Assembly (NCBI GenBank): GCA_938030745.1
Contig: CALHIP010000004.1
Coordinates: 1 to 47,506 of the forward strand
Direction of reading: 5' to 3'
Length of the DNA: 47,506 nt
From: an uncultured Patescibacteria group bacterium
GTDB taxonomy: Bacteria; Patescibacteriota; Patescibacteriia; UBA2591; CALHIP01
The notes below the pieces were generated by a model, which did no database searches, was not told the origin of the DNA, and saw nothing but the letters and a program-made list of their open reading frames with translations. The position numbers and the translations under genes were made by a program. How positions within the stretch are numbered: the first letter of the stretch is position 1; every line of letters starts with the position of its first letter. This document shows positions 4,893-29,652 of this stretch, piece by piece.

Positions 4893-6239
4893 TTAATAGA
4901 AAAGTTCACCTTCCATTCCCCAAGGAGTAACTTTTTTTATTTTTACTTTAACAAATTTGCCGATTAGATCAGAATCTTGAGATTGAAAATTAGAAACTTT
5001 TACTTGTTTAAATGTCTTTGTTCGACCGAAAAGAGAATTGTCTTTTTTGCTTTCAATTAATACTTCAACAATTTTATTAAGATATTTCTTATTTTTTTCT
5101 AATGCTGTTTTTTCTAAAATTTTAGCTAAAATTTTCCATCGCCTTTCCTTTTCTTCTTGCGATACATCATCTTTTAATTTAGCTGCTGAAGTAGCGGGGC
5201 GCGGTGAATATTTAGCAATATAAGCCATATCGAACTTTACTTCTTTCATCAATTTAGTTGTATTGAGAAATTGTTTTTTTGTTTCGCCAGGAAAACCAAC
5301 AATAATATCAGTTGAAATGTTGATATTTTTTTCAATCCCTTTACGGATGGCAAAGAATTTCAAACGAATTTTTTTAATTAAATTTTTATAATGAGTTATA
5401 GTATAGTTGCGATTCATCCGACGTAAAATTTCATCATCACCAGCTTGAACTGGTAAATGTAAATATGACATCACTTTTTCACACCTGGCCATAGTTTCAA
5501 TTAATTTATCAGATAAATCTTTAGGATGATTACTAATAAAAGTCAGCCAGAAATTTCCATCTAAATCATTAATCATTTTTACCAATTTTGGAAATCTTAT
5601 AATTTTTTCCTTTTGAGTTTTAAGTTTTCCTTGATAACTATTAACATTTTGTCCTAATAGAATAATCATTTTATAACCTCTTTTTATCAATTCCTTTACT
5701 TCACAAATAATTTCTTCTGCTGGTCTTGATATTTCTCTTCCTCTTGTATAAGGAACGACACAATAAGAGCAAAAATTATTACAGCCTGTCATAATTGGGA
5801 CATAGGCAATGGGAAAGGTTGAGAATTTAGGAAAAATATTTAAATAATTTTTAAATTTAAAATTTTTGAACTGTTTGTTTTTCAATTTTGTTTCAATTTT
5901 TGATAAAATTTGCGGCCAACTCATAAGTTGATCAATATCAAGAATGAGATCAGTCTTGTTTTTTAAATTCTCTTTATCTTTAGGTAAAATACAACCTGTT
6001 AAGACTATTTTTTGATTTTTTATTTTTTTTAAATTTTTATTTTTTATATTTGAGATTTGACCATAAACGCGATCTACTGCTGATTGTCGAACTGAACAAA
6101 CATTGATGACAATTAAGTCAGCCTTATCTTTATCAAGAGTGGGGGAGTAACCAATTTTTTCTAAAACAGCAGCAATTCGTTCCGAATCAGAACGATTCAT
6201 TTGACATCCATATGTAATAATATGGTATTTCATAGACAT
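4893..6239 (-). CDS. miaB: tRNA (i6A37) methylthiotransferase, radical SAM
   Basis: 448 aa. Has the UPF0004 N-domain cysteines (YGCQMN, NVCSVR, TGC), the radical-SAM CNNFCSYC motif and a C-terminal TRAM domain. The start may instead be the second ATG at 6233 (MKYH...). The annotated start codon overlaps repeat copy A. Confidence 0.88.
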   Translation of the reverse strand: MSMKYHIITYGCQMNRSDSERIAAVLEKIGYSPTLDKDKADLIVINVCSVRQSAVDRVYGQISNIKNKNLKKIKNQKIVLTGCILPKDKENLKNKTDLILDIDQLMSWPQILSKIETKLKNKQFKNFKFKNYLNIFPKFSTFPIAYVPIMTGCNNFCSYCVVPYTRGREISRPAEEIICEVKELIKRGYKMIILLGQNVNSYQGKLKTQKEKIIRFPKLVKMINDLDGNFWLTFISNHPKDLSDKLIETMARCEKVMSYLHLPVQAGDDEILRRMNRNYTITHYKNLIKKIRLKFFAIRKGIEKNINISTDIIVGFPGETKKQFLNTTKLMKEVKFDMAYIAKYSPRPATSAAKLKDDVSQEEKERRWKILAKILEKTALEKNKKYLNKIVEVLIESKKDNSLFGRTKTFKQVKVSNFQSQDSDLIGKFVKVKIKKVTPWGMEGELFY

Positions 6240-6272
6240 AGTCTATTTTCTGCGGCCGTCCGAAAAGAGAGG
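6238..6272 (+). repeat. R element copy A (ATAGTCTATTTTCTGCGGCCGTCCGAAAAGAG + AGG)
   Basis: The 32-nt core at 6238-6269 is identical to 6865-6896 and differs by 1 nt from 24878-24909. Internal inverted repeat CTATTTTC / GAAAAGAG surrounds TGCGGCCGTCC. It lies between the regulator stop (6277) and the miaB start. Confidence 0.9.
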
Positions 6273-6276
6273 TATA

Positions 6277-6822
6277 TTAAAATTTGCCTAATTCTTTTAC
6301 TTTTAAAAATTTAATATATTTGGAAAGATTTAAATTTTTAACTACTTCTTTTAATTCTTTATAAACATCATAGGGAGAAACCCAAACACTTTGTTGAACT
6401 TTTTGAAATCCTAATTCATAAAGAAACTCACGAAAGACATTTCTATCTTTTCTTCTTTTTTCCGGAATATCAAAAATAACCATCAACCAAGATTTATCAG
6501 GATTATATTTCTTTTTAAAATTTTTGATTTTATTTTTCAATACTCTTTTTTCACCTTTTGAAGTCAAAAAATACCCTTTCCCTTCTTTAGTGATTTTTAT
6601 CTTTAAGTATCCGTTTCTTTTCAATCGATAAATAGCGGAATAAAGATTTTTCTTTCCCCGCTTTTGAAAATATTCTTCTAACCAAGTTCTGAATGGCCTA
6701 TAGCGAGGGTCACCTCGAAGCCAATATCTAAAGGTAGATAAAGTACACGGCTGACGAAAGACATCTATAAAATCAGCTATTAACAAAAGTATTTTCTCTG
6801 TAAAAGATTGTTTTTTCTTCAT
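6277..6822 (-). CDS. Short PaaX-like transcriptional regulator (winged helix + PaaX-middle/Cas2-like ferredoxin-fold domain)
   Basis: 181 aa. The central segment LYSAIYRLKRNGYLKI...GKGYFLTSKGE looks like a winged-helix wing. WLMVIFDIPEKRRKDRNVFREFLYELGFQKVQQSVWVSP matches the PaaX (W-x-l-v-x-f-x-iPe..R...r..L...Gf....vWvsP) and Cas2-like beta-alpha-beta pattern. Assignment is by motif only. Confidence 0.6.
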   Translation of the reverse strand: MKKKQSFTEKILLLIADFIDVFRQPCTLSTFRYWLRGDPRYRPFRTWLEEYFQKRGKKNLYSAIYRLKRNGYLKIKITKEGKGYFLTSKGEKRVLKNKIKNFKKKYNPDKSWLMVIFDIPEKRRKDRNVFREFLYELGFQKVQQSVWVSPYDVYKELKEVVKNLNLSKYIKFLKVKELGKF

Positions 6823-6829
6823 TTAATGA

Positions 6830-6857
6830 ATTATATCACTTTTTAAAAATAAGTAAA
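6830..6857 (-). promoter_or_regulatory. Predicted sigma70-type promoter of the PaaX-like gene (leaderless-type geometry)
   Basis: On the minus strand: TTTACT (6857-6852), 16-nt spacer, TGaTATAAT (-10 at 6835-6830). Only 7 nt separate the -10 from the ATG at 6822. Confidence 0.45.
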
Positions 6858-6864
6858 TTTTTAT

Positions 6865-6900
6865 ATAGTCTATTTTCTGCGGCCGTCCGAAAAGAGGAGG
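6865..6900 (+). repeat. R element copy B (ATAGTCTATTTTCTGCGGCCGTCCGAAAAGAG + GAGG)
   Basis: The 32-nt core at 6865-6896 is identical to copy A. It sits between the thrS terminator hairpin and the -35 box of the regulator promoter. Confidence 0.9.
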
Positions 6901-6930: not shown

Positions 6931-6960
6931 CAAAAAAGAAGTCTTTTTAGATGACTTCTT
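6931..6960 (-). terminator. Rho-independent terminator downstream of thrS
   Basis: On the minus strand the stem AAGAAGTC (6960-6953) pairs with GACTTCTT (6943-6936) around a 9-nt loop, followed by TTTTTTG. It begins 27 nt after the thrS stop. Confidence 0.6.
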
Positions 6961-21904: not shown

Positions 21905-22717
21905 ATGATTTTTGTTATTAAAGCAAATGGTCAAAAAGAAGAATTTTTGCCGGAAAAAATTAAAAGAAGTTGTTTAAAGGCTGGCGCTTCAGAATCTTTA
22001 GCTAATGAAATTACAAAAAGAATTTCTCGCCAAGTCAGAAATGGAATGACGACAAGGGAAATCTGGAAACTGATTTTCCGATATTTAGGAAAAGAGGCAC
22101 CGATTATTGCCTCTCGTTTTTCTTTAAGAGAAGCACTTCTTCGACTTGGACCGAATGGGTTTTATTTTGAAAAAATAGTCAGTCAAATTTTTAAAGCCGA
22201 AGGATATCAAGTTGAAACTAATAAAATTTTTTCTGGTGCTTGTGTTGAACATGAAGTCGATATTGTAGCAAAAAAAGAAAATGAAAATTTAATGATTGAA
22301 TGTAAATTTCATAATCAATATGGGATTTATACTGAAATAAAAGATATTTTATATGTTTGGGCAAGATTTTTAGATTTAAAAGATGCTGGTCATAATTTTA
22401 CTCAGCCAGTTTTGGTATCTAATACTAAATTTTCCGAATCAGCAAAAAAATATGCTAGTTGTAAAAATTTTTCTTTAATTGGCTGGGCTTATCCAGAAGA
22501 AAAAAATTTACAATATTTTATTGAAAAAAATAAACTTTATCCAATTACTGTTTTACGTCGGCTTGAAAAATATTATCAGGAAAAACTTTTAAAGTATAAT
22601 ATTGTTTCTTGTCAAGACCTAATAAAAGTTGAACCAAAAAAATTACAAAAAGAAATCGGTCTTGATCCAAGAAAAATTGCTATTTTACAAAGCGAAACAA
22701 ATTTACTTTTAAAATAA
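21905..22717 (+). CDS. ATP-cone domain fused to a PD-(D/E)xK (Mrr-like) nuclease domain, with a C-terminal helix-hairpin-helix-like tail
   Basis: 270 aa. N-terminal ATP-cone pattern (VIKANGQKEEFLPEKIKRS...TTREIWKLIF). Nuclease core FEKIVSQIFKAEGYQV...HEVDIVAKK...LMIECKF. 6 nt downstream of the DHS-like gene. Confidence 0.68.
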   Translation: MIFVIKANGQKEEFLPEKIKRSCLKAGASESLANEITKRISRQVRNGMTTREIWKLIFRYLGKEAPIIASRFSLREALLRLGPNGFYFEKIVSQIFKAEGYQVETNKIFSGACVEHEVDIVAKKENENLMIECKFHNQYGIYTEIKDILYVWARFLDLKDAGHNFTQPVLVSNTKFSESAKKYASCKNFSLIGWAYPEEKNLQYFIEKNKLYPITVLRRLEKYYQEKLLKYNIVSCQDLIKVEPKKLQKEIGLDPRKIAILQSETNLLLK

Positions 22718-22718
22718 T

Positions 22719-22747
22719 TTGACATTTTCTAAAAAAATTATTAAAAT
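22719..22747 (+). promoter_or_regulatory. Predicted sigma70-type promoter for CDS 22809
   Basis: Consensus TTGACA (22719-22724), 17-nt spacer, TAAAAT (22742-22747). Confidence 0.55.
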
Positions 22748-22748
22748 T

Positions 22749-22762
22749 AATTAAAAGGTCGA
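22749..22762 (+). promoter_or_regulatory. Conserved promoter-proximal box AATTAAAAGGTCGA (copy 1)
   Basis: A 14-nt block identical to 26197-26210, starting 1-2 nt after the -10 box in both cases. Followed by the palindrome GAATTTATTAAATTC. Confidence 0.55.
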
Positions 22763-22808
22763 ATTTATTAAATTCTTTTTATCAATCCGGTCCTAAGTAA
22801 TTAAAATT

Positions 22809-24674
22809 ATGAATGAAAGTTTTGAAAAAATACAATTTGGAGAAAAAAGAGAGGAGCTTGAGAAAAAAGGGAAGTTAAAAGAATTATTTTTTGTGAAATT
22901 TGCTAAGAAATTTGAAAGGTTTCTATATCCACTTATTCTTAGTCTCTTTTTCGTCGGAGGAGGGCTAAAAGCAAAAGATTCGGAAAGAATATATTCGGAT
23001 TATTCAAAAAAAGTCGTAAAAACAGTCGAACTCTTCCTTCAGCATAAAAAAGAAATGGAACCCAAGGTAATAAATATTAATAAGGGGGTCCCACCTGAAC
23101 TTAGAGAAACTCAAAAGAAGATTCTTTCAGAATGGATAAAAGAGAAAGGAGAAATAAAGATTATTGATTTAAAGACACTCGAAACCGAATATCCCAAGAG
23201 TGTTTTTATTAATTTAGTAAAAGAGTATCTTAAAGAGACTGAAAATCTAAGAGGGATAGAAAGAAGTGAAGCCTTTAAAGAAATAATAGATTATTTTAAC
23301 GAACTTTTTTCCTATTTTCGTTTTCGCGGAGATGAATTTTCTGAGGAAGATCGTCGAGAATTACTTTTCGCGCGTTGGGCTATTATTACTGAATTTTTAA
23401 AACAAAATGCCTATCATCCTGGTACTTCATTAGAACGCATTGTTAAAGATGCGCAGAAAAATTTTGAGATTTATGATCGGCAAATGAAGGACCTAATTTC
23501 ACGTATGGAAATGGAAAAAGAAGGTCAACCGCTGATTCTCTCGCCAAACCTAGTTAAAAATGAAGATGGAACATACACATTAGATTTGAAGGATTATGAA
23601 ATTAGTATGTTGATAGGTGGAGCTAAAATTGAAGGTTTAGATCCTTTAGATTTATTTGGAGTGAGAATTGAAAACGTTGTTTCACTTCGATATTTTACTC
23701 CAGAAAAATGGAAAAAAAATCTTATTTCAGAAGGAAAAAATTTTATTAAGAAGATAGAAGATGAATTAGGATTAAAGTATAAAAATGATCCTTCTGGTGA
23801 AGCCCAGAAATTAAAAGATCAATACATCATTATTAATGCTATTTGTGAAAGTGCAGAGAATTTTGGCCGACCAGTACGTATTAAATTAAGCAATGGAAAA
23901 ACAATTGAGGTTACTTTTAATTTTGATATTTTAGCTGGTGTTGCAAGTAAAGGAGTTTTATGTGGCAATTATACTGAAGTGAAACGTAGCGATGGCGGAT
24001 TTGAAGTTATAGATGAGAAAGAAAAACTAACCAAAAGGGTTTCTTGCGGTAGCGGTTGGGAGATATTACTTTTTGGGATACCCCCTTTCTTTCTACTAAA
24101 GAAAAGAAAAAAGAAAGAAAAAGAAGAAAAGAAGGAAGGAGAATCAATTTTAACTCCTCCACCAGAGACCTTTTTAACTAAAGAACCTGGAAAAGAGGTG
24201 GAATCTAAGATTCCAGGAACTGAAAAGTTTAAGATAGATGATGATAAAACCGCGCAACTTTTAGGTTTAAAAAAAGGCGAAGAATTGACACTAGAAAAGC
24301 TGGAAGAAATTATTAGTGGTGCTAAAAAAGAAAATGAAGTCTGGTATTTAGTTCTTGAAGAAAGAAAAGAATTGTTAGACAAAAAACGTGCATTAGAGGA
24401 AGAAATCCAGCGTTTAAAAGAGCAGATAGAAGAAAGAAAGAAAGAATTAGTTGGTAAATTAATTAAAGAACGAGAAAGAAAGCAGGAAATTAAAAAGGAA
24501 GTTATAATTCAGACAAAGGAAGATATGGAAAAGATTAAAGAATTAGAGAATATAAAAAAAGAATTATTAGAAAATCAGAAAAAACTTAAGGAAATAGAAG
24601 AAAAACTAAATGAATATAAAAAAGAAAATTTAAATCAGGAAGAGTTGCTAAGGAGGATCGAAGAGAGGAAATAG
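22809..24674 (+). CDS. Hypothetical two-TM membrane protein with a long E/K-rich coiled-coil C-terminus
   Basis: 621 aa. Hydrophobic segments at about residues 40-53 (YPLILSLFFVGGG) and 415-430 (GWEILLFGIPPFFLL) flank a non-repetitive domain of about 360 aa. The final ~130 aa show heptad-like E/K/L repeats. No family recognised. Confidence 0.65.
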   Translation: MNESFEKIQFGEKREELEKKGKLKELFFVKFAKKFERFLYPLILSLFFVGGGLKAKDSERIYSDYSKKVVKTVELFLQHKKEMEPKVININKGVPPELRETQKKILSEWIKEKGEIKIIDLKTLETEYPKSVFINLVKEYLKETENLRGIERSEAFKEIIDYFNELFSYFRFRGDEFSEEDRRELLFARWAIITEFLKQNAYHPGTSLERIVKDAQKNFEIYDRQMKDLISRMEMEKEGQPLILSPNLVKNEDGTYTLDLKDYEISMLIGGAKIEGLDPLDLFGVRIENVVSLRYFTPEKWKKNLISEGKNFIKKIEDELGLKYKNDPSGEAQKLKDQYIIINAICESAENFGRPVRIKLSNGKTIEVTFNFDILAGVASKGVLCGNYTEVKRSDGGFEVIDEKEKLTKRVSCGSGWEILLFGIPPFFLLKKRKKKEKEEKKEGESILTPPPETFLTKEPGKEVESKIPGTEKFKIDDDKTAQLLGLKKGEELTLEKLEEIISGAKKENEVWYLVLEERKELLDKKRALEEEIQRLKEQIEERKKELVGKLIKERERKQEIKKEVIIQTKEDMEKIKELENIKKELLENQKKLKEIEEKLNEYKKENLNQEELLRRIEERK

Positions 24675-24764
24675 CTTTCCTTTTAACTCTGATAAGAATA
24701 AATTCTAAGTGATTGTTACTCAATAAGAGAATAAAATTGTTTTCGCTTTAGAAAAGATCCTATA

Positions 24765-24806
24765 TTACTATATAATTTTTAGCGGCCGTGAAAAATTATT
24801 TAGTAA
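24765..24806. repeat. P element copy 1: 42-bp AT-armed palindrome centred on CGGCCG
   Basis: TTACTATATAATTTTT-AGCGGCCGTG-AAAAATTATTTAGTAA. The 16-nt arms are complementary with one mismatch and share 15 nt with P element copy 2. Confidence 0.85.
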
Positions 24807-24877
24807 TGTTTAAGTGAGGCATAGATAGAAATTTTCTATACTATTTCTTGCTGAAGCAAAATCAATTTTTAAATAAT

Positions 24878-24912
24878 ATAGTCTATTTTCTGCGGCCATC
24901 CGAAAAGAGGAG
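24878..24912 (+). repeat. R element copy C (ATAGTCTATTTTCTGCGGCCATCCGAAAAGAG + GAG)
   Basis: 31 of 32 core positions match copies A and B (CGGCCG becomes CGGCCA). Its 3' purine block AGAGGAG ends 6 nt before the ATG at 24919. Confidence 0.9.
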
Positions 24913-24918
24913 ATAATT

Positions 24919-25290
24919 ATGATTGCTAAAATTTTCCTTTACATTTTTGGTCTTCTCTGGTTGATTTATTCTATAATAATGATTTTTGCTCCAGCTTATT
25001 CCAAGAAAGTTGGTCGTTCTTGTTTAAAGATTCCAATTTGGTTTGGCGGAATTGTTTCCGTTGGTTTTGCTATCTTGCTTTGGTATTCAGCCTCTGCCTC
25101 TCTTTCTCCAACTCTGGTGAAAGCAATATCTCTACTTTCTATCTGGAAAGGCCTATTCCTTCTTCTTGCTCCAATTGACGATTTAAAGAAAACAACTGAT
25201 TGGTGGTTTGCTCTTTCTGATTTAGCTTATCGAATTTTAGGTATTTTATTTTTACCAGTAGCAATTTATTTCATTTTGCGGATCGTTTAA
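24919..25290 (+). CDS. Small polytopic membrane protein, unknown function
   Basis: 123 aa with about 4 predicted TM helices. It is the only CDS in the window preceded by a strong GAGGAG Shine-Dalgarno-like block, which is supplied by R copy C. Confidence 0.6.
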   Translation: MIAKIFLYIFGLLWLIYSIIMIFAPAYSKKVGRSCLKIPIWFGGIVSVGFAILLWYSASASLSPTLVKAISLLSIWKGLFLLLAPIDDLKKTTDWWFALSDLAYRILGILFLPVAIYFILRIV

Positions 25291-25355
25291 TTTTTTTGAA
25301 ATGAGAAGTTATTAGATTGATAATTTTTTATTCTTTCAAATCCATAATAATTTGT

Positions 25356-26102
25356 ATGAAAAAAAACATTGGTATCTTAGGTTACGGTGAAGTTGGTAAA
25401 ACACGTGCTTTATTTTATCATAGAAAAAAATATAATCTTCTTATTAAAGATATCAAAAAAGATGATTTTAAAAATGAAAAATTGGATATTTTAAATGTTT
25501 GTTTACCATATATCAAAAATTTTGAAAAAATTGTTATTGAAGTAATAAAGAAAAATAAACCAAATTTAACAATTATTCACTCTACAGTTTTACCTGGAAC
25601 AACGAAAAAAATTATTAAAATAACTAAAGGGAAAATTGTTCATTCGCCGATTCGTGGGGATCACCCCCACCTTTATCAAGCTATAAAAACTTTTATTAAA
25701 TATATAGGTTGTGAAGATTTAAAAGCTGGAAAGTTAGCAGAAAGACATTTCAAAGAAATTGGGATTAAAAAAATAAAAATTATAAAACCAGCTATAGTGA
25801 CAGAATTAAACAAATTGATTGATACAACTTATTATGCTCATTGCATTGTTTTTACTGATTATGTGGCTGAAATTTTTAAAAAATATAAAGTACCATTTAA
25901 GACATTTTGGGATTTCAATCTTTCTTATAATGATGGTTATGAAAAAATGGGTAAGAAAAATGTTATTCGACCAACCCTTTTACCAACAAGTATGTTTGGT
26001 CAAGCAGGAAAAATTACTGGCCATTGTCTTATTCCTAATGCCGAACTTTTAGAGAAAATTTTTCCTCATCCAATCACTAAATATATTTTAAAATACAGAT
26101 AA
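25356..26102 (+). CDS. Short NAD(P)-binding oxidoreductase, UDP-glucose/GDP-mannose dehydrogenase-like (lacks the C-terminal domain)
   Basis: The track ORF starts at TTG 25317. The ATG at 25356 gives MKKNIGILGYGEVGK (Rossmann GxGxxG). HSTVLPGTT and TELNKLIDTTYYAHCIVFTDYVAEI resemble the UDPGDH N-terminal and central-helix regions. Family call is tentative. Confidence 0.5.
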   Translation: MKKNIGILGYGEVGKTRALFYHRKKYNLLIKDIKKDDFKNEKLDILNVCLPYIKNFEKIVIEVIKKNKPNLTIIHSTVLPGTTKKIIKITKGKIVHSPIRGDHPHLYQAIKTFIKYIGCEDLKAGKLAERHFKEIGIKKIKIIKPAIVTELNKLIDTTYYAHCIVFTDYVAEIFKKYKVPFKTFWDFNLSYNDGYEKMGKKNVIRPTLLPTSMFGQAGKITGHCLIPNAELLEKIFPHPITKYILKYR

Positions 26103-26105
26103 AAA

Positions 26106-26151
26106 ATCTACTATATAATTTTTTACGGCCGTTAAAAATTATATAGTAGAT
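26106..26151. repeat. P element copy 2: 46-bp AT-armed palindrome centred on CGGCCG
   Basis: ATCTACTATATAATTTTT-TACGGCCGTT-AAAAATTATATAGTAGAT, with perfect 18-nt arms. Begins 4 nt after the stop at 26100-26102. Confidence 0.9.
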
Positions 26152-26165
26152 CAAGAAATTCTCAT

Positions 26166-26194
26166 TTGGTTTTAATTTTAAAATTTGTTATAAT
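26166..26194 (+). promoter_or_regulatory. Predicted extended -10 promoter for CDS 26240
   Basis: TTGGTT (26166-26171), 17-nt spacer ending in TGT, TATAAT (26189-26194), i.e. TGTTATAAT. Confidence 0.5.
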
Positions 26195-26196
26195 TA

Positions 26197-26210
26197 AATT
26201 AAAAGGTCGA
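26197..26210 (+). promoter_or_regulatory. Conserved promoter-proximal box AATTAAAAGGTCGA (copy 2)
   Basis: Identical 14-mer to 22749-22762, at the same offset from the -10 box. Confidence 0.55.
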
Positions 26211-26239
26211 GTTTAAATTATTAAATTTAACTTAAATTT

Positions 26240-27679
26240 ATGAGAAAATTAGAAAAAATTATTGTTTTACTTTTAATTTTCAGTCTAATCTTTGCCTTCC
26301 CTGCTTTTACTCAAGAAGAAACAGAAATTCAGCCAGAGGAATTAGAGATAAAAACACCTCAGATTTTACCAACTAGTGGCGCTTACTCGATTAAAGATTT
26401 TTTTCGAAAATTAAGATTACTTTTTGCCTTCTCAGCAATAAAAAAAGCAGAGCTTCGCCTTAAATTTGCTAATGAGAAATTATTAGAGGTAAAAGAAATT
26501 GCCAAGAGCGCTCCGCCAGAATTAATTGAAAAAAGTTTAACCAGTTATCAAGAAGAATTAGAAAAAGCAAAATTAGAATCAGAGAAATTAAAAAAAGAAG
26601 ACCAGCAAAAGTTTTTAAAAAAGTATACTACCCATGCCTTAAAGCAGCAAATGGTTTTAGAAAATATTGCCTCTCAAGTTAAAGGTGATGTTTATGAAAA
26701 GATCTTAGCCAATCGAGAAAGGCATTTGGAAAGATTTAAAGAAGTGATGGAAAAAGTAGAGAATAAAAAAGAACTGAAAGAAAAAATTAAAGAAACAGTT
26801 GATGAAGTTATAAAAGTTTCGCCATCAAGAGTGATTAAAATTTATGAGACAATCAAAGAAATTGAAGAGAAAGTCCCAGAAGAAATTAAGCCAGAAATTG
26901 AAAAAATTAGAAAAGAAATGATTGTAAAAGTAATTGAAAAAGTTAAGACTCTTCCTGTTGAAGACCAAGAAAAAGAAATAAAAACTCAGATAAGAATTTT
27001 TGCTAATCCTTTCATTGCTCAAGAAGTGATTGAGGAAATAAAAAATAAAGAACCAGAGATTGTTTTACCACCTATTAGTGATTTATCAACAGAGATTCTC
27101 CAAGAAAAAATTGGTCCTCTTAATGAAGAAAAGAAAACAGAAATTTTGGAAAAAATGACTAAAGAAAGAATTAAACATTTGGAAAGGCTGGAAGAAGTTA
27201 AAGAAAAGTTAGAAAAATTACCCGAACCAGCTGTTAGTCCGCAAGTGATTGAAAGAGTGATCAAAAATCAAATTGAAAAAATTGAGGCAAAAATTGAAAA
27301 ATTAAGGAATTTACCAATTGGAGGATCGCGTCTTGAAGAAATTAAAGAGGAACTAAAAGAAGCGCCAAAAATTAAACAAGAAATTATTAAACAAGCACCA
27401 AACTTATTAGAGATTAAAGAATTAGAACTCAAACCTGCTCCAGAAGAAAAATCAACTCAGTTAAGAGAAAAAGAGATTGGTTTCTGTGGCTGGTCAACAA
27501 AGTTTCCTTGTCAAACTGATGAAGATTGTTTAAAGAGTGGTTGCTCAGGTCAAGTTTGTCAAGGAAAAAATGAGCCAGCAATTATAACAACTTGTGAATG
27601 GCGAGATTGTTATGATGCTGATATTTATAAGGTAAAGTGTGGCTGTTTTAAAGGAAAATGTCAATGGTATCAACAATAA
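26240..27679 (+). CDS. Secreted protein: signal peptide, DUF5667-like N-domain, long E/K coiled coil, C-terminal cysteine-rich knot domain
   Basis: 479 aa. Signal peptide IFSLIFAFPAFTQEE. FFRKLRLLFAFSAIKKAELRLKFANEKLLE resembles DUF5667. The C-terminal 65 aa carry 10 Cys (FCGWSTKFPCQTDEDCLKSGCSGQVCQG...TTCEWRDCYDADIYKVKCGCFKGKCQW), resembling the eight-cysteine-cluster type of domain. Confidence 0.7.
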   Translation: MRKLEKIIVLLLIFSLIFAFPAFTQEETEIQPEELEIKTPQILPTSGAYSIKDFFRKLRLLFAFSAIKKAELRLKFANEKLLEVKEIAKSAPPELIEKSLTSYQEELEKAKLESEKLKKEDQQKFLKKYTTHALKQQMVLENIASQVKGDVYEKILANRERHLERFKEVMEKVENKKELKEKIKETVDEVIKVSPSRVIKIYETIKEIEEKVPEEIKPEIEKIRKEMIVKVIEKVKTLPVEDQEKEIKTQIRIFANPFIAQEVIEEIKNKEPEIVLPPISDLSTEILQEKIGPLNEEKKTEILEKMTKERIKHLERLEEVKEKLEKLPEPAVSPQVIERVIKNQIEKIEAKIEKLRNLPIGGSRLEEIKEELKEAPKIKQEIIKQAPNLLEIKELELKPAPEEKSTQLREKEIGFCGWSTKFPCQTDEDCLKSGCSGQVCQGKNEPAIITTCEWRDCYDADIYKVKCGCFKGKCQWYQQ

Positions 27680-27697
27680 TTTAATAATAAGCTAAAA

Positions 27698-28171
27698 ATG
27701 AAAAACAAAATTATTTCTCCTAATGAAAAAATTTTGATTGAGTTTGGGGTAGCGAAAACCTATTCTGGATTTTGGATTTTCTTAGGTCTTTTGATTTTGT
27801 TTGGAGGGTTAATTTTAACATTATTTTTTATCAGCGATTTTTGGTTAATTATTATTTTAGGCCTTGCTTTAATTGCCTATGGTTTTTATCTCCGTCTTGC
27901 TTATTTTTATTTTTTAACTAACAAAAGAATAATTTTCTATTATAGATTTTTCCATACTCATTTAGTTTCAATTGATTATCAAAAAATTACTGATATCAAT
28001 GTCAAAGAAAATTTTCTAGAAAGAATATTTCTTGGTTCAGGAAATTTAGCTATTAATACTGCTGGTACACCAAAAGAAGAAATCGTTTTCTATCATATTG
28101 CTAATCCGCATTTGATAAAAAGAAAATTAGATGAAATTAAAATAGGAGTTTTACAAAATAGTAAATTATAA
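27698..28171 (+). CDS. Membrane protein with bacterial PH domain (bPH_2 / YdbS-YdbT-like)
   Basis: 157 aa. Two TM helices, then YFYFLTNKRIIFYYRFF...ISIDYQKITDINVKENFLERIFLGSGNLAINTAG, typical of bPH_2. Confidence 0.7.
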   Translation: MKNKIISPNEKILIEFGVAKTYSGFWIFLGLLILFGGLILTLFFISDFWLIIILGLALIAYGFYLRLAYFYFLTNKRIIFYYRFFHTHLVSIDYQKITDINVKENFLERIFLGSGNLAINTAGTPKEEIVFYHIANPHLIKRKLDEIKIGVLQNSKL

Positions 28172-28254
28172 AGAATTAATTATTTTTTCTTTTCACGCTT
28201 ATTTTATAATAAGGGTGATTGTTTATTTTTAAAAAAATGTTAAAATTTAAAAAT

Positions 28255-29652
28255 ATGGAAAAAATTGGTGTTTTAGGCGGAACATTTAATCCACCACATT
28301 TTGCTCATTTGGCAATAGCAAAAAAAGCAATTAAAAATTTGGGTCTGAAAAAATTGCTTTTAATGGTAGCTGGAAAACCAGCTTTAAAAACTAAAGATTT
28401 AGCGCCAATAAGAGATAGGTTAGAAATGACAAAAATTCTGGCAAAATATCATCCACGACTTGAAGTTTCAACAATTGAAATTGCCAGAGCAAAAAAAGGG
28501 AAAAAATCTTTTACGATTGAAACAATTAAAGAATTAAAGAAAAAATATCCAAAATTTAAGATTTATTGGATTATTGGCGAGGATTCTTTAAAAGAAATTC
28601 TTCAAGGAAAATGGAAAGGTGGATTATCAATTTTTGATCAAGCAAAATTTGTTGTTTTTACTCGAGAAAATTTTAAAGTAAAAATTCCAAAAAATCTCAT
28701 AAAAAAGATAAAAAAAATAAAATTAAAAATTCCTATCTCTTCAACTGAGATTAGAAAGAAAATAAAAAACAGTGAAGATATTTCTAATATGGTACCAAAA
28801 AAAATTTTAGAATATATTAAAGAGAAAAAATTATATATGAATATTCCAAAACATTTGCAAGTTAATAAAGAAAAGGCAAGAAAAATTATTCAGGCTAAAA
28901 TTAGAGAAATAAAAAATTATTTTAAAAAATCTGGTTTTAAAAAAGCAATTATTGGAATTTCTGGTGGATTAGATTCAGCTGTTTCTTGTGCTTTGGTTGT
29001 TCGAGCTTTAGGACCAAAAAATGTTCTTGTTCTTTCGATGCCTTATTATGGAATTAGTGATAAAAAATCAATAGAAGATGCTTTAAAATTAGCAAAAAAT
29101 TTAAAAATTCCAAAAAAGAATTTTATACTTTTACCAATCAATAAAGCAGTTGATGCCTCTTGGCAAATTTTAAAAAAATTTAAAAACAATGAAAAAATTA
29201 GAAAAGGAAATTTAATGGCTAGAGAAAGAATGAAAATTTTATTTGATTTATCTTCTGTCTTTAAAGCAATTGTTGTTGGAACTGAAACGAAAAGCGAAGA
29301 AGAAATTGGTTATTATACTTTATGGGGAGACCAAGCTTCAGGGATTGAACCAATAAAAAATTTATGGAAAACTCAAGTTTATCAACTAGCCCAATTTTTA
29401 AAAGAGATTCCTAATCAAATTTTAAATAAGCAGCCATCACCTGGTCTTTGGAAAAATCAAACTGCTGAAAATGAATTAGGCTTTTCCTATCTTGAAGCGG
29501 ATACAGTTCTTTCTGCTTTGAAAGATAAAAAAATGGAAAAAAATGAAATTGTTAAAAAATTTAAAATTCCAAAAAGAAAAATTAACTTAATCATTTCTCG
29601 ATTGAAAATTGGTGAAATTAAAAAATCAATTCCTTATGTTTTAAAAAGTTAA
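28255..29652 (+). CDS. nadD/nadE: Fusion protein: nicotinate-nucleotide adenylyltransferase (NadD) + NH3-dependent NAD+ synthetase (NadE)
   Basis: The track ORF starts at TTG 28219. The ATG at 28255 gives MEKIGVLGGTFNPPHFAHL (the NadD (H/T)xxH motif). ISSTEIRKKI marks the NadD C-terminal motif. From about 28837 there is a NadE module with the PP-loop GISGGLDSAV. No stop codon separates the two modules. Confidence 0.8.
   Translation: MEKIGVLGGTFNPPHFAHLAIAKKAIKNLGLKKLLLMVAGKPALKTKDLAPIRDRLEMTKILAKYHPRLEVSTIEIARAKKGKKSFTIETIKELKKKYPKFKIYWIIGEDSLKEILQGKWKGGLSIFDQAKFVVFTRENFKVKIPKNLIKKIKKIKLKIPISSTEIRKKIKNSEDISNMVPKKILEYIKEKKLYMNIPKHLQVNKEKARKIIQAKIREIKNYFKKSGFKKAIIGISGGLDSAVSCALVVRALGPKNVLVLSMPYYGISDKKSIEDALKLAKNLKIPKKNFILLPINKAVDASWQILKKFKNNEKIRKGNLMARERMKILFDLSSVFKAIVVGTETKSEEEIGYYTLWGDQASGIEPIKNLWKTQVYQLAQFLKEIPNQILNKQPSPGLWKNQTAENELGFSYLEADTVLSALKDKKMEKNEIVKKFKIPKRKINLIISRLKIGEIKKSIPYVLKS

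What the first reader, a model, noticed from the sequence alone, without database searches (positions are those of the whole stretch)
24765..26151. Two copies of a 42-46 bp AT-armed, CGGCCG-centred palindrome bracket a two-gene cassette
P1 (24765-24806, TTACTATATAATTTTT-AGCGGCCGTG-AAAAATTATTTAGTAA) and P2 (26106-26151, ATCTACTATATAATTTTT-TACGGCCGTT-AAAAATTATATAGTAGAT) share 15 nt of arm sequence and the same centre. Between them lie R copy C, a 123-aa polytopic membrane protein and a truncated UDP-glucose-dehydrogenase-like oxidoreductase. P2 has perfect 18-bp arms and starts 4 nt after a stop codon, but it has no U-tract, so it is not a textbook intrinsic terminator. The stems are nearly all A/T and the loop is GC, the reverse of a usual terminator. 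Together with the repeat-bracketed regulator gene at 6.2-6.9 kb, this gives two repeat-gene(s)-repeat units in one window. That pattern suggests REP/MITE-like palindromic elements, recombinase target sites flanking mobile modules, or dimeric protein-binding sites.
Basis: seen in the sequence. Interest (0 to 1): 0.7.

Follow-up and report, generated by a model that had tools for sequence, protein, structure and literature searches.

The report
Regulator binding sites, not cassette ends
The two long AT-armed, CGGCCG-centred palindromes are real and most likely are DNA docking sites for a small regulator encoded 18 kb away, a protein family that is very common in the tiny "candidate phyla radiation" bacteria, is usually mislabelled as the CRISPR protein Cas2, and whose own gene is typically bracketed by such palindromes.

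Summary
P1 (24765-24806) and P2 (26106-26151) are exactly as described and are far beyond chance. They are not cassette ends and not ordinary terminators.

- **Not a mobile cassette.** In relatives the 254-aa gene sits at the same chromosomal position without palindromes. It is a full-length member of a ~245-aa family, not truncated. The window holds no recombinase or transposase.
- **A recurrent site class.** P1 and P2 belong to ~40-bp palindromes with a CG-RY-CG centre, an AT-rich inner spacer and strongly symmetric outer half-sites.
- **Tied to one gene family.** In 80 metagenome loci these palindromes lie almost only next to genes for a ~180-aa winged-helix + Cas2-like (PaaX_M) protein, often on both sides (39 loci). 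70/111 adjacent intergenic regions carry one, against 7/88 others.
- **The window encodes such a protein.** It lies at 6277-6822 (-), flanked by the R repeats. Its 73%-identical orthologues are flanked by sites with P-type arms (CTATATAATTTTT..CGGCCG; ATAGTAGA at the same spacing) or R-type arms.
- **DNA site, not RNA hairpin.** Arm symmetry, mismatch types and the absence of T-tracts all point this way.

Best reading: P1 and P2 are operators through which this regulator controls the 123/254-aa operon and the 479-aa gene. Binding, and whether it represses or activates, are untested.

The parts
24765..24806 (.). P1: 42-bp palindrome centred on CGGCCG, with arms TACTATATAATTTTT / AAAAATTATTTAGTA. 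Proposed operator in the 244-nt intergenic region upstream of the 123-aa gene. Its left arm contains TATAAT.
26106..26151 (.). P2: 46-bp near-perfect palindrome with the same arms and centre as P1. Its centre lies 26 nt after the stop of the 254-aa gene and about 74 nt upstream of the predicted transcription start of the 479-aa gene.
24878..24912 (.). R copy C (ATAGTCTATTTTCTGCGGCCATCCGAAAAGAGGAG): a degenerate, asymmetric family-type site. Its centre is 24 nt before the 123-aa start codon and its 3' end supplies the AGGAG ribosome-binding site.
6865..6899 (.). R copy B: the site upstream of the PaaX-like gene. Its centre is about 60 nt upstream of the predicted leaderless transcription start.
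6238..6272 (.). R copy A: the site that fills the 37-nt gap between the stop of the PaaX-like gene and the start of the MiaB-like gene.
6277..6822 (-). [quoted passage not shown] Proposed binder of P and R.
6830..6838 (-). Extended -10 element (TGATATAAT) of the PaaX-like gene, 7 nt before its ATG, which implies a leaderless mRNA. The same element is conserved in orthologues L114 and L118.
   Evidence: read directly from the sequence
24919..25290 (+). Gene for a 123-aa four-helix membrane protein of unknown function, a candidate target gene. Its homologue in L113 also has a family-type site (ACGATCGT centre) about 48 nt upstream.
25338..26102 (+). Gene for a 254-aa short NDP-sugar-dehydrogenase-like protein, full length for its family. 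It is a resident gene at this syntenic position and probably co-transcribed with the 123-aa gene.
26240..27679 (+). Gene for a 479-aa secreted DUF5667 / eight-cysteine-domain protein, a candidate second target downstream of P2.
26167..26195 (+). Near-consensus promoter-like element TTGGTT-N17-(TGt)TATAAT between P2 and the 479-aa gene.
   Evidence: read directly from the sequence
22809..24674 (+). Lineage-specific 621-aa gene. Together with P1 and R-C it separates the ATP-cone/Mrr gene from the 123-aa gene. It is absent from all relatives examined.
4893..6239 (-). MiaB/RimO-type radical-SAM methylthiotransferase gene immediately downstream of R copy A, a possible co-regulated gene.

Best explanation
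P1 and P2 are double-stranded DNA operator sites for a PaaX-like regulator (winged helix-turn-helix plus Cas2-like domain). The most likely binder is the 181-aa protein encoded at 6277-6822 on the minus strand.

**Proposed mechanism (inferred).** A protein dimer binds each ~40-46-bp palindrome. The two winged helices read the outer half-sites (CTACTATATAA / TTATATAGTAG, 11-21 bp from the centre). The conserved Cas2-like dimer core sits over the conserved CGGCCG centre. The T5/A5 tracts form a bendable spacer.

**Proposed targets.**
- P1 overlaps a TATAAT box in the long intergenic region ahead of the 123-aa/254-aa operon.
- P2 lies between that operon's stop codon and the promoter of the 479-aa gene.
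- The regulator therefore gates, and probably represses or insulates, these two adjacent transcription units.
- It would also control its own gene and the MiaB-like gene through the degenerate R sites.

**What is shown.** The site class exists, it is linked to this gene family, and P-type and R-type arms flank orthologues of the window's regulator.

**What is inferred.** Actual binding, which protein domain reads which part of the site, and the sign of regulation.
For: 1. **Unbiased DNA scan.** AATTTTTNNCGGCCGNNAAAAATT scanned against 185,579 reference genomes gave 19 loci, most of them extended palindromes. In 4 of the 8 Patescibacteria loci the adjacent ORF is a homologue of the window's 181-aa protein (phmmer E 3e-16 to 7e-21).
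2. **Metagenome loci chosen by the protein.** Among 80 such loci there are 114 palindromes with a CG[GA][TC]CG or CTATAG centre, and 106 of them lie within 250 nt of the gene. 45/76 loci have one upstream, 51/76 downstream and 39 both. 70/111 adjacent intergenic regions carry one against 7/88 other intergenic regions (Fisher p = 2e-16).
3. **Orthologues of the window's protein.**
   - L114 (73% identical) has cCTATATAATTTTTCA-CGGCCG-TAAAATTTTACATAGTA 48 nt before its start, and ACTATATAATTTTT directly after its stop. That 13-mer occurs nowhere else in the 118 fetched loci, and in the window only in P1 and P2.
   - L118 (73% identical) is flanked by CGGCCG-N11-ATAGTAGA / ATAGTGGT. This is the same half-site at the same spacing as the right arm of P2. 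It also carries the R-type signature CGGCCGCNNAAAAYAG, which is otherwise found only in the R copies.
4. **Site anatomy fits a protein site rather than a stem.** Symmetry is 100% at positions 2-4 from the centre (fixed by how the sites were selected), falls to 52-79% at positions 6-11, and rises to 85-96% at positions 12-17. Mismatches show no G:U bias (GT/TG 123, AC/CA 97, other 364).
5. **Co-variation.** Arms are genome-specific but shared between copies within a genome. Centre type follows protein similarity (nearest neighbour has the same class in 39/62 cases; permutation p about 0.0005).
6. **Promoter proximity.** Upstream palindromes are followed by -10-like hexamers about 2.4 times more often than downstream ones, with the start codon 12-75 nt from the centre.
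7. **The protein.** Pfam PaaX_M E = 4e-22. The PDB profile hit and the best Foldseek hit are both E. coli PaaX (8a39), followed by Cas2 structures. AlphaFold2 mean pLDDT is 81.
8. **Precedent.** E. coli PaaX binds TGATTC-N27-GAATCA, which is likewise a ~39-bp site with widely spaced inverted half-sites (PMC9493321).
Against: - No binding experiment exists, so everything rests on comparative genomics.
- In the window the regulator's own flanks carry R, not P. P could therefore belong to a paralogue encoded outside the window. Protein similarity to the other loci (36% or less in the winged-helix region) is too low to assign specificity.
- In 27 of the 45 family loci with a downstream palindrome and a neighbour gene, that neighbour is convergent. 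The downstream copy is therefore not a simple operator for the next gene, and its role is unknown.
- P2 lies about 15 nt upstream of the -35 box of the predicted promoter of the 479-aa gene rather than over it.
- The promoter assignments are consensus matches in 72% A+T DNA, where such matches are common (52 found against 43 expected).
- The palindrome sets were selected for symmetry (at least 14/20), which inflates absolute symmetry values, though not the positional profile.
- The FDIPE and QxSV conservation is partly imposed by the peptide patterns used to fetch the loci.
Confidence: 0.62

Rival explanations
1. P1 and P2 are operators of the same family but are bound by a different PaaX-like paralogue encoded elsewhere in the genome. 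The window's own protein would bind only R.
For: - As a rule, the two palindromes that flank a regulator gene share arms with each other. In the window those flanks are R, whose outer half-site differs from that of P.
- Other loci carry two different family palindromes side by side: L096 at 7690/7748, L021 at 1076/1133, L065 at 3587/3643. This suggests several regulators per genome.
- L115 has different arms upstream and downstream of a single regulator gene.
Against: - Orthologues 73% identical to the window's protein carry P-type arms (L114) or R-type arms with the P2 half-site ATAGTAGA (L118). Both site types therefore occur within this single orthologue group.
- Only one family member is encoded in the 47.5-kb window, and the rest of the genome is not available.
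Confidence: 0.2
2. P1 and P2 act at the RNA level as hairpins: factor-dependent or U-tract-independent terminators, attenuators or processing sites that delimit the 123/254-aa transcript. The Cas2-like domain might bind them.
For: - Both fold into long hairpins: P2 at -19.5 kcal/mol (z = -6.4) and P1 at -14.3 kcal/mol (z = -3.8).
- P2 starts 4 nt after a stop codon. Family 'downstream' palindromes sit 8-55 nt after the regulator's stop and are frequent between convergent genes (27/45).
- Cas2 and VapD relatives include ribonucleases (known from the literature on that family; not tested here).
Against: - No U-tract follows either palindrome on the coding strand, and T-rich tails are not enriched family-wide (11/56 on + against 8/56 on -).
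- The inner stem positions 6-11 are only 52-79% complementary, and there is no G:U-over-A:C bias.
- Upstream and downstream copies have the same symmetry profile.
- The genome uses a conventional stem plus T-run terminator after the ThrRS gene (6931-6960, minus strand).
- Rfam gives no match.
Confidence: 0.1
3. P1 and P2 are the ends of a mobile or excisable 1.3-kb cassette: recombination sites, or the terminal palindromes of a non-autonomous element.
For: - Two near-identical palindromes bracket two genes.
- The interval between the ATP-cone/Mrr gene and the bPH gene is a variable hot spot. Its content differs in every relative examined.
- Orthologues of the palindrome-flanked regulator gene sit in four different gene neighbourhoods.
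- Contig L114 breaks inside a palindrome.
Against: - The 254-aa gene is in the same slot in L001, L003, L004 and L006 without palindromes. The 123-aa gene is resident in L107-L112 without palindromes. The two genes therefore did not arrive as one P-bounded unit.
- No recombinase or transposase is encoded in the window.
- Neither the protein family nor the P core occurs in 2.9 million viral contigs.
- The strict core is present at only 1-3 copies per reference genome.
Confidence: 0.06
4. The palindromes are cleavage or nicking targets of an enzymatically active Cas2-like nuclease, making a selfish or defence-type module, rather than passive operators.
For: - The family keeps the Cas2 beta1 Asp motif (FDIPE) that E. 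coli PaaX has lost (LLLSEG in the aligned region).
- The C-terminal domain superposes on Cas2 structures with 27-31% identity.
- The short conserved palindromic centre (CGGCCG, CGATCG, CTATAG) resembles a restriction-type site.
Against: - The sites are stably maintained next to the gene in thousands of lineages, which is not expected for self-cleavage targets.
- Upstream copies have promoter-proximal geometry.
- No partner genes such as Cas1, a methylase or a toxin are conserved next to the module. The neighbours are diverse.
- Part of the motif conservation is a selection artefact of the search patterns.
Confidence: 0.05

Closest known systems
PaaX repressor and its operators (E. coli, Pseudomonas; phenylacetyl-CoA-responsive, GntR-like winged-helix regulator)
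   Same: - The same two N-terminal domains are present: a winged helix-turn-helix plus the Cas2-like PaaX_M domain. Evidence: Pfam E = 4e-22, a PDB profile hit to 8a39, and the best Foldseek hit.
- The gene appears autoregulated.
- The operator is long (~39 bp) with widely spaced inverted half-sites: TGATTC-N27-GAATCA for E. coli, against a 6-bp half-site, about 22 bp and another 6-bp half-site for the family here.
   Different: - The protein is only ~180 aa and lacks the C-terminal effector domain. It scores 37 bits on TIGR02277 against a cut-off of 265.
- It keeps the Cas2 FDIPE motif.
- There are no paa genes nearby.
- The operator has a conserved CG-RY-CG centre.
- A second copy usually lies just after the gene's stop codon.
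Cas2 (CRISPR adaptation protein). NCBI names the orthologues 'CRISPR-associated endonuclease Cas2'.
   Same: - The C-terminal ~75 residues have the Cas2 ferredoxin-like fold and motifs. TIGR01573 scores 31.9 bits, above its 24.5 cut-off. Foldseek target-normalised TM-scores are 0.5-0.65 at 27-31% identity.
- In Cas1-Cas2 complexes the Cas2 dimer lies along duplex DNA (from the solved complexes listed).
   Different: - There is no CRISPR array, Cas1 or other cas gene in the window.
- An N-terminal winged helix is fused to the domain.
- The gene is solitary and flanked by palindromes.
- The family amounts to thousands of 50%-identity clusters of ~170-195 aa.
Intrinsic (Rho-independent) terminators
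   Same: P2 is a stable hairpin placed directly after a stop codon.
   Different: - The stem is almost entirely A/T, with the only G/C at the apex.
- No U-tract follows on the coding strand.
- The middle of the stem is poorly conserved across the family.
- The same element also occurs upstream of genes.
REP / MITE-type palindromic repeats and integron attC-like cassette boundaries
   Same: They are repeated imperfect palindromes in intergenic DNA that sometimes bracket genes.
   Different: - Copy number is low: 2 P and 3 R in 47.5 kb, and 1-3 strict-core copies per reference genome.
- They are tightly linked to one regulator gene family.
- No RAYT, transposase or integrase is present.
- The bracketed genes are syntenic residents.

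Membership tests
PaaX-family regulator/operator system | [quoted passage not shown] | tested here: met
   Pfam PF20803 PaaX_M E = 4.1e-22, residues 108-178. A PDB profile hit to E. coli PaaX 8a39 covers residues 46-156. The AlphaFold2 model has helices plus a wing at residues 42-100 and a beta-alpha-beta-beta-alpha-beta domain at 112-175, and its top Foldseek hit is 8a39.
PaaX-family regulator/operator system | C-terminal effector (phenylacetyl-CoA-responsive) domain; full length about 300 aa | tested here: not met
   The protein is 181 aa and there is no PaaX_C hit. TIGR02277 scores 37 bits against a cut-off of 264.6 and matches only model positions 36-149 of 279.
PaaX-family regulator/operator system | Long operator with widely spaced inverted half-sites (E. 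coli: TGATTC-N27-GAATCA) | tested here: met
   Family symmetry peaks 12-17 bp from the centre on both sides and is weaker in the spacer. P2 is symmetric over 46 bp. The reference operator is taken from PMC9493321. The half-site spacing differs (about 22 bp against 27 bp) and there is an extra conserved centre.
PaaX-family regulator/operator system | Controls phenylacetate catabolic (paa) genes | tested here: not met
   No paa genes were found in the Pfam sweep of the window. Neighbours of family members are diverse.
PaaX-family regulator/operator system | The protein physically binds the palindromes | not testable with these tools
   This needs gel-shift, footprinting or DAP-seq experiments. 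Only genomic association is shown here.
CRISPR-Cas adaptation module (Cas2) | Cas2 fold and sequence motifs | tested here: met
   TIGR01573 scores 31.9 bits (cut-off 24.5), PF09827 E = 1.6e-5, and Foldseek hits Cas2 structures.
CRISPR-Cas adaptation module (Cas2) | Association with Cas1 and a CRISPR array | tested here: not met
   The window has no array and no Cas1 or other cas domains. The gene is solitary in all 80 loci, each of which has exactly one family member.
Intrinsic terminator | G+C-rich stem followed by a U-tract on the transcribed strand | tested here: not met
   The terminator scan does not call P1 or P2. The stems are A/T apart from the apex, and no U-run follows on the + strand. 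There is no T-tract enrichment across the family.
REP/MITE-like dispersed palindromic element | Many dispersed copies per genome, independent of any particular neighbouring gene | tested here: inconclusive
   The source genome beyond the window is unavailable. In reference genomes the strict core is present 1-3 times per genome, and in half of the Patescibacteria cases next to the regulator gene. In metagenome loci 106/114 sites adjoin the regulator gene.
Mobile gene cassette bounded by recombination sites | Presence/absence of the bounded segment as a unit in relatives, plus a cognate recombinase | tested here: not met
   The 254-aa and 123-aa genes are each resident, separately, in relatives that lack palindromes. 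No recombinase is present. Relatives closer than about 78% protein identity were not available.

The most novel reading that the evidence does not exclude
The unit 'palindrome, winged-helix/Cas2-like gene, palindrome' is a self-contained genetic module of candidate-phyla-radiation bacteria, not just an autoregulated repressor. It could be a Cas2-derived DNA-targeting system that relocates in the genome. Its protein, which keeps the Cas2 catalytic-type Asp, would loop, insulate or even cut DNA at a conserved CG-RY-CG centre. Solo pairs such as P1/P2 would mark places where it has captured control of other genes.
Probability: 0.12. Interest if true: 0.85.

Novelty: new variant of a known kind. 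Interest (0 to 1): 0.58.

Why it matters
- **Regulation in these bacteria is almost unknown.** Candidate-phyla-radiation bacteria (Patescibacteria) are mostly uncultured. This analysis ties a very large, misannotated protein family to a recognisable ~40-bp DNA site class with a conserved centre and lineage-specific arms. The family comprises about 5,200 clusters at 50% identity with E ≤ 1e-10, routinely named 'Cas2'.
- **It gives a testable regulator-operator pair.** It also gives a way to predict small regulons directly from metagenomes.
- **It corrects annotation.** These 'Cas2' genes are not evidence of CRISPR systems.
- **It suggests how the protein reads DNA.** The tripartite site fits a winged-helix pair plus a Cas2-like dimer, which bears on how Cas2-fold proteins engage duplex DNA.
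- **For this window specifically,** the apparent 'mobile cassette' is better read as two adjacent regulated transcription units.

Tried and rejected
- **Known RNA families.** Rfam at gathering thresholds on the whole window, and at E ≤ 10 on the P1/R-C intergenic region, gave only noise. No tRNA or tmRNA was found that could suggest an integration site.
- **Terminator reading.** The consensus scan does not call P1 or P2, and the family shows no T-tract enrichment.
- **Exact look-up of the window's proteins in public assemblies.** They are not on record, so the source genome could not be scanned for further copies.
- **Cassette mobility.** Synteny in 14 related loci shows that the two genes are residents acquired separately. 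No family palindromes were found there, apart from one R-like site in L113.
- **Assigning P or R to the window's protein by winged-helix similarity.** This failed: identity to the 84 other family members is 36% or less. It was resolved instead by fetching orthologues with 60-76% identity.
- **Phage or plasmid origin.** No family member and no P core were found in viral contigs.
- **A common functional theme among extra target genes in other genomes.** None emerged: GT2, glycogen synthase, RuvX, a kinase-like P-loop protein, a metallo-beta-lactamase-fold protein, a radical-SAM protein and unknowns.
- **Literature.** Searches for PaaX with Patescibacteria, with Cas2-like and with Cas2, and for palindromic operators in these phyla, found nothing relevant.
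- **The 27-N gap in L113.** It lies upstream of the 479-aa homologue and could hide a palindrome, but it cannot be read.
Full report
**1.

P1 (24765-24806) and P2 (26106-26151) read exactly as reported.
- P2 is the strongest palindrome in the 47.5-kb window: 23-nt arms, 96% complementary, no spacer. P1 ranks fifth.
- Their shared core ATAATTTTTNNCGGCCGNNAAAAATTAT occurs twice even with 3 mismatches allowed, against none in 100 dinucleotide-preserving shuffles.
- The exact 13-mer arm CTATATAATTTTT occurs only inside P1 and P2.
- As RNA both would fold into long hairpins: -14.3 kcal/mol (z = -3.8) and -19.5 kcal/mol (z = -6.4). Neither is followed by a U-run on the coding strand, and the terminator scan does not call them.

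The window is 28% G+C. Its gene content is a housekeeping stretch of a Patescibacteria chromosome: RmlD/RmlA, MurA, CtpA, L9, ThrRS, DnaE, FtsW, agmatinase/deoxyhypusine synthase, LigA, GatCA, MreBC, PBP2 and PilB. It has no recombinase, transposase, integrase, tRNA or CRISPR array.

**2. The 'cassette' is not a unit**

The 254-aa protein is not truncated. It has 555 detected homologues, nearly all 237-270 aa, aligned end to end, mostly in Patescibacteria.

In four relatives (62-76% identity) the order is LTD protein, agmatinase, deoxyhypusine synthase, ATP-cone/Mrr protein, the 245-aa gene, then bPH protein (L003 lacks the agmatinase and deoxyhypusine synthase genes). The 254-aa gene therefore sits in an ancestral slot.

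The 123-aa membrane protein has only three homologue clusters (63-67% identity).
- In six contigs it directly follows the ATP-cone/Mrr gene.
- In L113 it is followed, after 660 nt, by a 63%-identical homologue of the 479-aa gene, with no 254-aa gene between.

None of these relatives has a CGGCCG-type palindrome in the region. The exception is one R-like site (aaatttcACGATCGTgaaaaagg) about 48 nt upstream of the 123-aa gene in L113.

The interval between the ATP-cone/Mrr and bPH genes is thus a variable hot spot. Specific to the window's lineage are the 621-aa gene, P1, R-C and P2. The P1-to-P2 segment as a whole is not lineage-specific.

**3. What P1 and P2 belong to**

*Scan by DNA pattern.* AATTTTTNNCGGCCGNNAAAAATT was scanned against one genome per species of 185,579 species and returned 19 loci.
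- Most are palindromes that extend well beyond the pattern, with genome-specific outer arms.
- In four of the eight Patescibacteria loci (Saccharibacteria, Kerfeldbacteria, Doudnabacteria and one unclassified) the ORF beside the palindrome is a homologue of the window's 181-aa protein at 6277-6822(-) (E 3e-16 to 7e-21). In three of them a second palindrome lies on the other side of the gene.

*Scan by protein.* A profile of these proteins against JGI metagenomes confirmed 588 relatives, and 80 loci were kept. In those 390 kb:
- 114 palindromes have a CG[GA][TC]CG or CTATAG centre and at least 14/20 arm matches.
- 106 of them lie within 250 nt of the regulator gene.
- 45/76 loci have one upstream, with the centre mostly 12-75 nt before the start.
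- 51/76 have one downstream, with the centre mostly 8-55 nt after the stop.
- 39 have both.

Against an intergenic-only control, 70/111 intergenic regions adjacent to the gene carry such a palindrome, against 7/88 other intergenic regions (odds ratio about 20, Fisher p = 2e-16). The minority of 'extra' sites lie 27-165 nt upstream of assorted genes.

**4. Link to the window's own regulator**

Orthologues of the 181-aa protein (60-76% identical) exist. NCBI names several of them 'CRISPR-associated endonuclease Cas2'.

*L114 (73% identical).*
- It has cCTATATAATTTTTCA-CGGCCG-TAAAATTTTACATAGTA centred 48 nt before its start codon.
- Directly after its stop codon it has ACTATATAATTTTT, where the contig ends.
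- This 13-mer is the P1/P2 arm. Among the 118 fetched loci it occurs only at these two flanks.

*L118 (73% identical).*
- It is flanked by ...CAG-CGGCCG-CTCAAAACAGT-ATAGTAGA and ...CAG-CGGCCG-CGTAAAATAGT-ATAGTGGT.
- The right arm of P2 is CGGCCG-TTAAAAATTAT-ATAGTAGA, the same outer half-site at the same 11-nt offset.
- L118's flanks also carry CGGCCGCNNAAAAYAG. In the window this is found only in the three R copies, and among all loci only in L118.

P-type and R-type sites are therefore two versions of the flank sites of one orthologue group. R is an asymmetric, degenerate version: one good arm, and RNA folding no better than shuffles.

*L115/L116 (60% identical).* The pattern repeats, with perfect 20+20 palindromes and a third copy 133 nt upstream of a radical-SAM gene.

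**5. DNA site or RNA hairpin?**

Across the 114 family sites, complementarity by distance from the centre is:

| Distance from centre | Complementarity |
|---|---|
| Positions 2-4 | 100% (fixed by the centre pattern used to select sites) |
| Positions 6-11 | 52-79% |
| Positions 12-17 | 85-96% |
| Beyond position 19 | random |

- Upstream and downstream copies have the same profile.
- Mismatches are mostly T:T and A:A. G:T/T:G (123) is not clearly favoured over A:C/C:A (97).
- T-rich tails are not enriched on either strand.
- Arms differ between genomes but are shared by the copies within a locus.
- The centre class tracks protein similarity: the nearest neighbour has the same class in 39/62 cases (permutation p about 0.0005).
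- Upstream copies are followed by -10-like hexamers about 2.4 times more often than downstream copies. Often the start codon comes only 10-25 nt later, which implies short or absent leaders.

This is the signature of a tripartite double-stranded binding site, two outer half-sites plus a centre. It is not the signature of a selected continuous stem.

**6. The protein**

- Pfam gives PaaX_M (Cas2-like) at E = 4e-22 and Cas2 at E = 1.6e-5.
- NCBIfam gives partial PaaX, and Cas2 above its cut-off.
- A profile search of PDB sequences finds E. coli PaaX (8a39) over residues 46-156, then Cas2 proteins.
- The AlphaFold2 model (mean pLDDT 81) shows a winged helix-turn-helix followed by a beta-alpha-beta-beta-alpha-beta domain. 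Foldseek ranks 8a39 first, then about 20 Cas2 chains.
- The protein lacks PaaX's C-terminal effector domain. It keeps the FDIPE...R...QxSV motifs of Cas2, although that conservation is partly imposed by how the loci were fetched.
- The family is large: 6,779 clusters at 50% identity with E ≤ 1e-3 and 5,218 with E ≤ 1e-10, typically 170-195 aa.
- It is absent from viral contigs.
- E. coli PaaX binds TGATTC-N27-GAATCA (PMC9493321), also a ~39-bp site with distant inverted half-sites.

**7. Most likely mechanism in the window (inferred)**

A dimer of the 181-aa protein, or less likely of a paralogue encoded outside the window, binds P1 and P2.
- **P1** overlaps a TTTAGA-N18-TATAAT promoter-like element. 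It lies in the 244-nt gap before the 123-aa/254-aa operon. R-C sits there as well, 24 nt before the start codon.
- **P2** lies between that operon's stop codon and a near-consensus TTGGTT-N17-TGtTATAAT promoter of the 479-aa DUF5667/eight-cysteine protein gene.
- **R-B** lies about 60 nt upstream of the regulator's own leaderless promoter (TGATATAAT, 7 nt, ATG). **R-A** fills the gap before the MiaB-like gene.

The R-C-to-P2 geometry, 24 nt before a start codon and 26 nt after a stop codon, copies the geometry around the regulator genes themselves.

Repression or insulation is the likelier sign. In the family the downstream neighbour is convergent in 27/45 loci. The second copy is therefore not simply the next gene's operator, and its role (looping, roadblock or boundary) is unexplained.

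**8. Comparison and novelty**

- **Relation to PaaX.** It works like a PaaX-type repressor-operator pair. It fails two defining features of PaaX proper: the effector domain and paa targets.
- **Relation to Cas2.** It is not a CRISPR Cas2, since there is no array and no Cas1.
- **Prior description.** I found no description of this short family or its palindromes in the searchable literature.
- **Classification.** A new variant of a known kind.
- **Residual novel reading.** A relocating, possibly catalytically active Cas2-derived module. It is supported only by the retained Asp motif, by the differing neighbourhoods of the orthologues and by the unexplained downstream copy.

Noticed in passing
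window 6931-6960 (- strand): A conventional intrinsic terminator follows the ThrRS stop codon: AAGAAGTC-ATCTAAAAA-GACTTCTT-TTTTG. The organism therefore does use stem plus T-run terminators, unlike P1 and P2.
   Followed up: partly
window 6820-6838 (- strand); L114 7068-7089; L118 881-898: The PaaX-like gene and its orthologues have an extended -10 box (TGATATAAT or TGATAAAAT) only 6-10 nt before the ATG and no Shine-Dalgarno sequence. This points to leaderless mRNAs.
   Followed up: partly
window 6277-6822 (-); proteins P0134, P0135, P0137, P0140, P0145: Public annotation names the orthologues 'CRISPR-associated endonuclease Cas2', because TIGR01573 scores just above its cut-off. No CRISPR array or Cas1 accompanies them, so this is probably a systematic misannotation in Patescibacteria genomes.
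   Followed up: partly
window 21905-28171, compared with L001, L003, L004, L006 and L107-L113: The interval between the ATP-cone/Mrr-type nuclease gene and the bPH-domain gene is a variable hot spot. Its content differs in every relative: the 245-aa gene alone, plus YkuD, plus a 65-aa ORF, the 123-aa gene, or the 123-aa gene followed by the 479-aa gene.
   Followed up: partly
L113 1054-1080: A run of 27 N lies about 60 nt upstream of the 479-aa homologue, between '...ctaattttt' and 'aaaagatatt...'. It is at roughly the position where P2 lies in the window, so an assembly gap may hide a palindrome.
   Followed up: no
window 22809-24674: The 621-aa ORF has no Pfam or NCBIfam match and no homologue in any related locus examined. 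It has hydrophobic segments and a long Lys/Glu-rich, probably coiled-coil, C-terminus.
   Followed up: no
L096 7690/7748; L021 1076/1133; L065 3587/3643: Two family-type palindromes with different arms, and sometimes different centres, sit 56-58 bp apart in the same intergenic region. This resembles P1 and R-C, which are 110 bp apart in the window, and suggests that several paralogous regulators converge on one promoter.
   Followed up: no
L014 778 and L017 5945 (Gemmiger, 67% G+C); L024 4708 (Bacteroidia): Long palindromes with the same AATTTTTnnCGGCCGnnAAAAATT core occur outside Patescibacteria. The two Gemmiger copies share identical arms despite that genome's 67% G+C. No PaaX-like gene is nearby and their nature is unknown.
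   Followed up: no
window 26096-26161 (- strand): Read on the minus strand, P2 is followed by UUUUUUAU and would look like a terminator for antisense transcription. No minus-strand gene lies nearby.
   Followed up: no
window 26240-27679: The 479-aa protein combines a signal peptide, DUF5667, a long Glu/Lys-rich region and a C-terminal eight-cysteine-cluster domain (TIGR04289, E = 7.5e-18).
   Followed up: no
window 28219-29652: A single 477-aa ORF fuses a cytidylyltransferase-like (NadD-type) domain to NAD synthase (NadE).
   Followed up: no
L115 17650; window 6238-6272: In two members of the orthologue group a family site lies directly upstream of a radical-SAM enzyme gene. The enzymes are of different types: HMPTM-type in L115 and MiaB-type in the window.
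   Followed up: no
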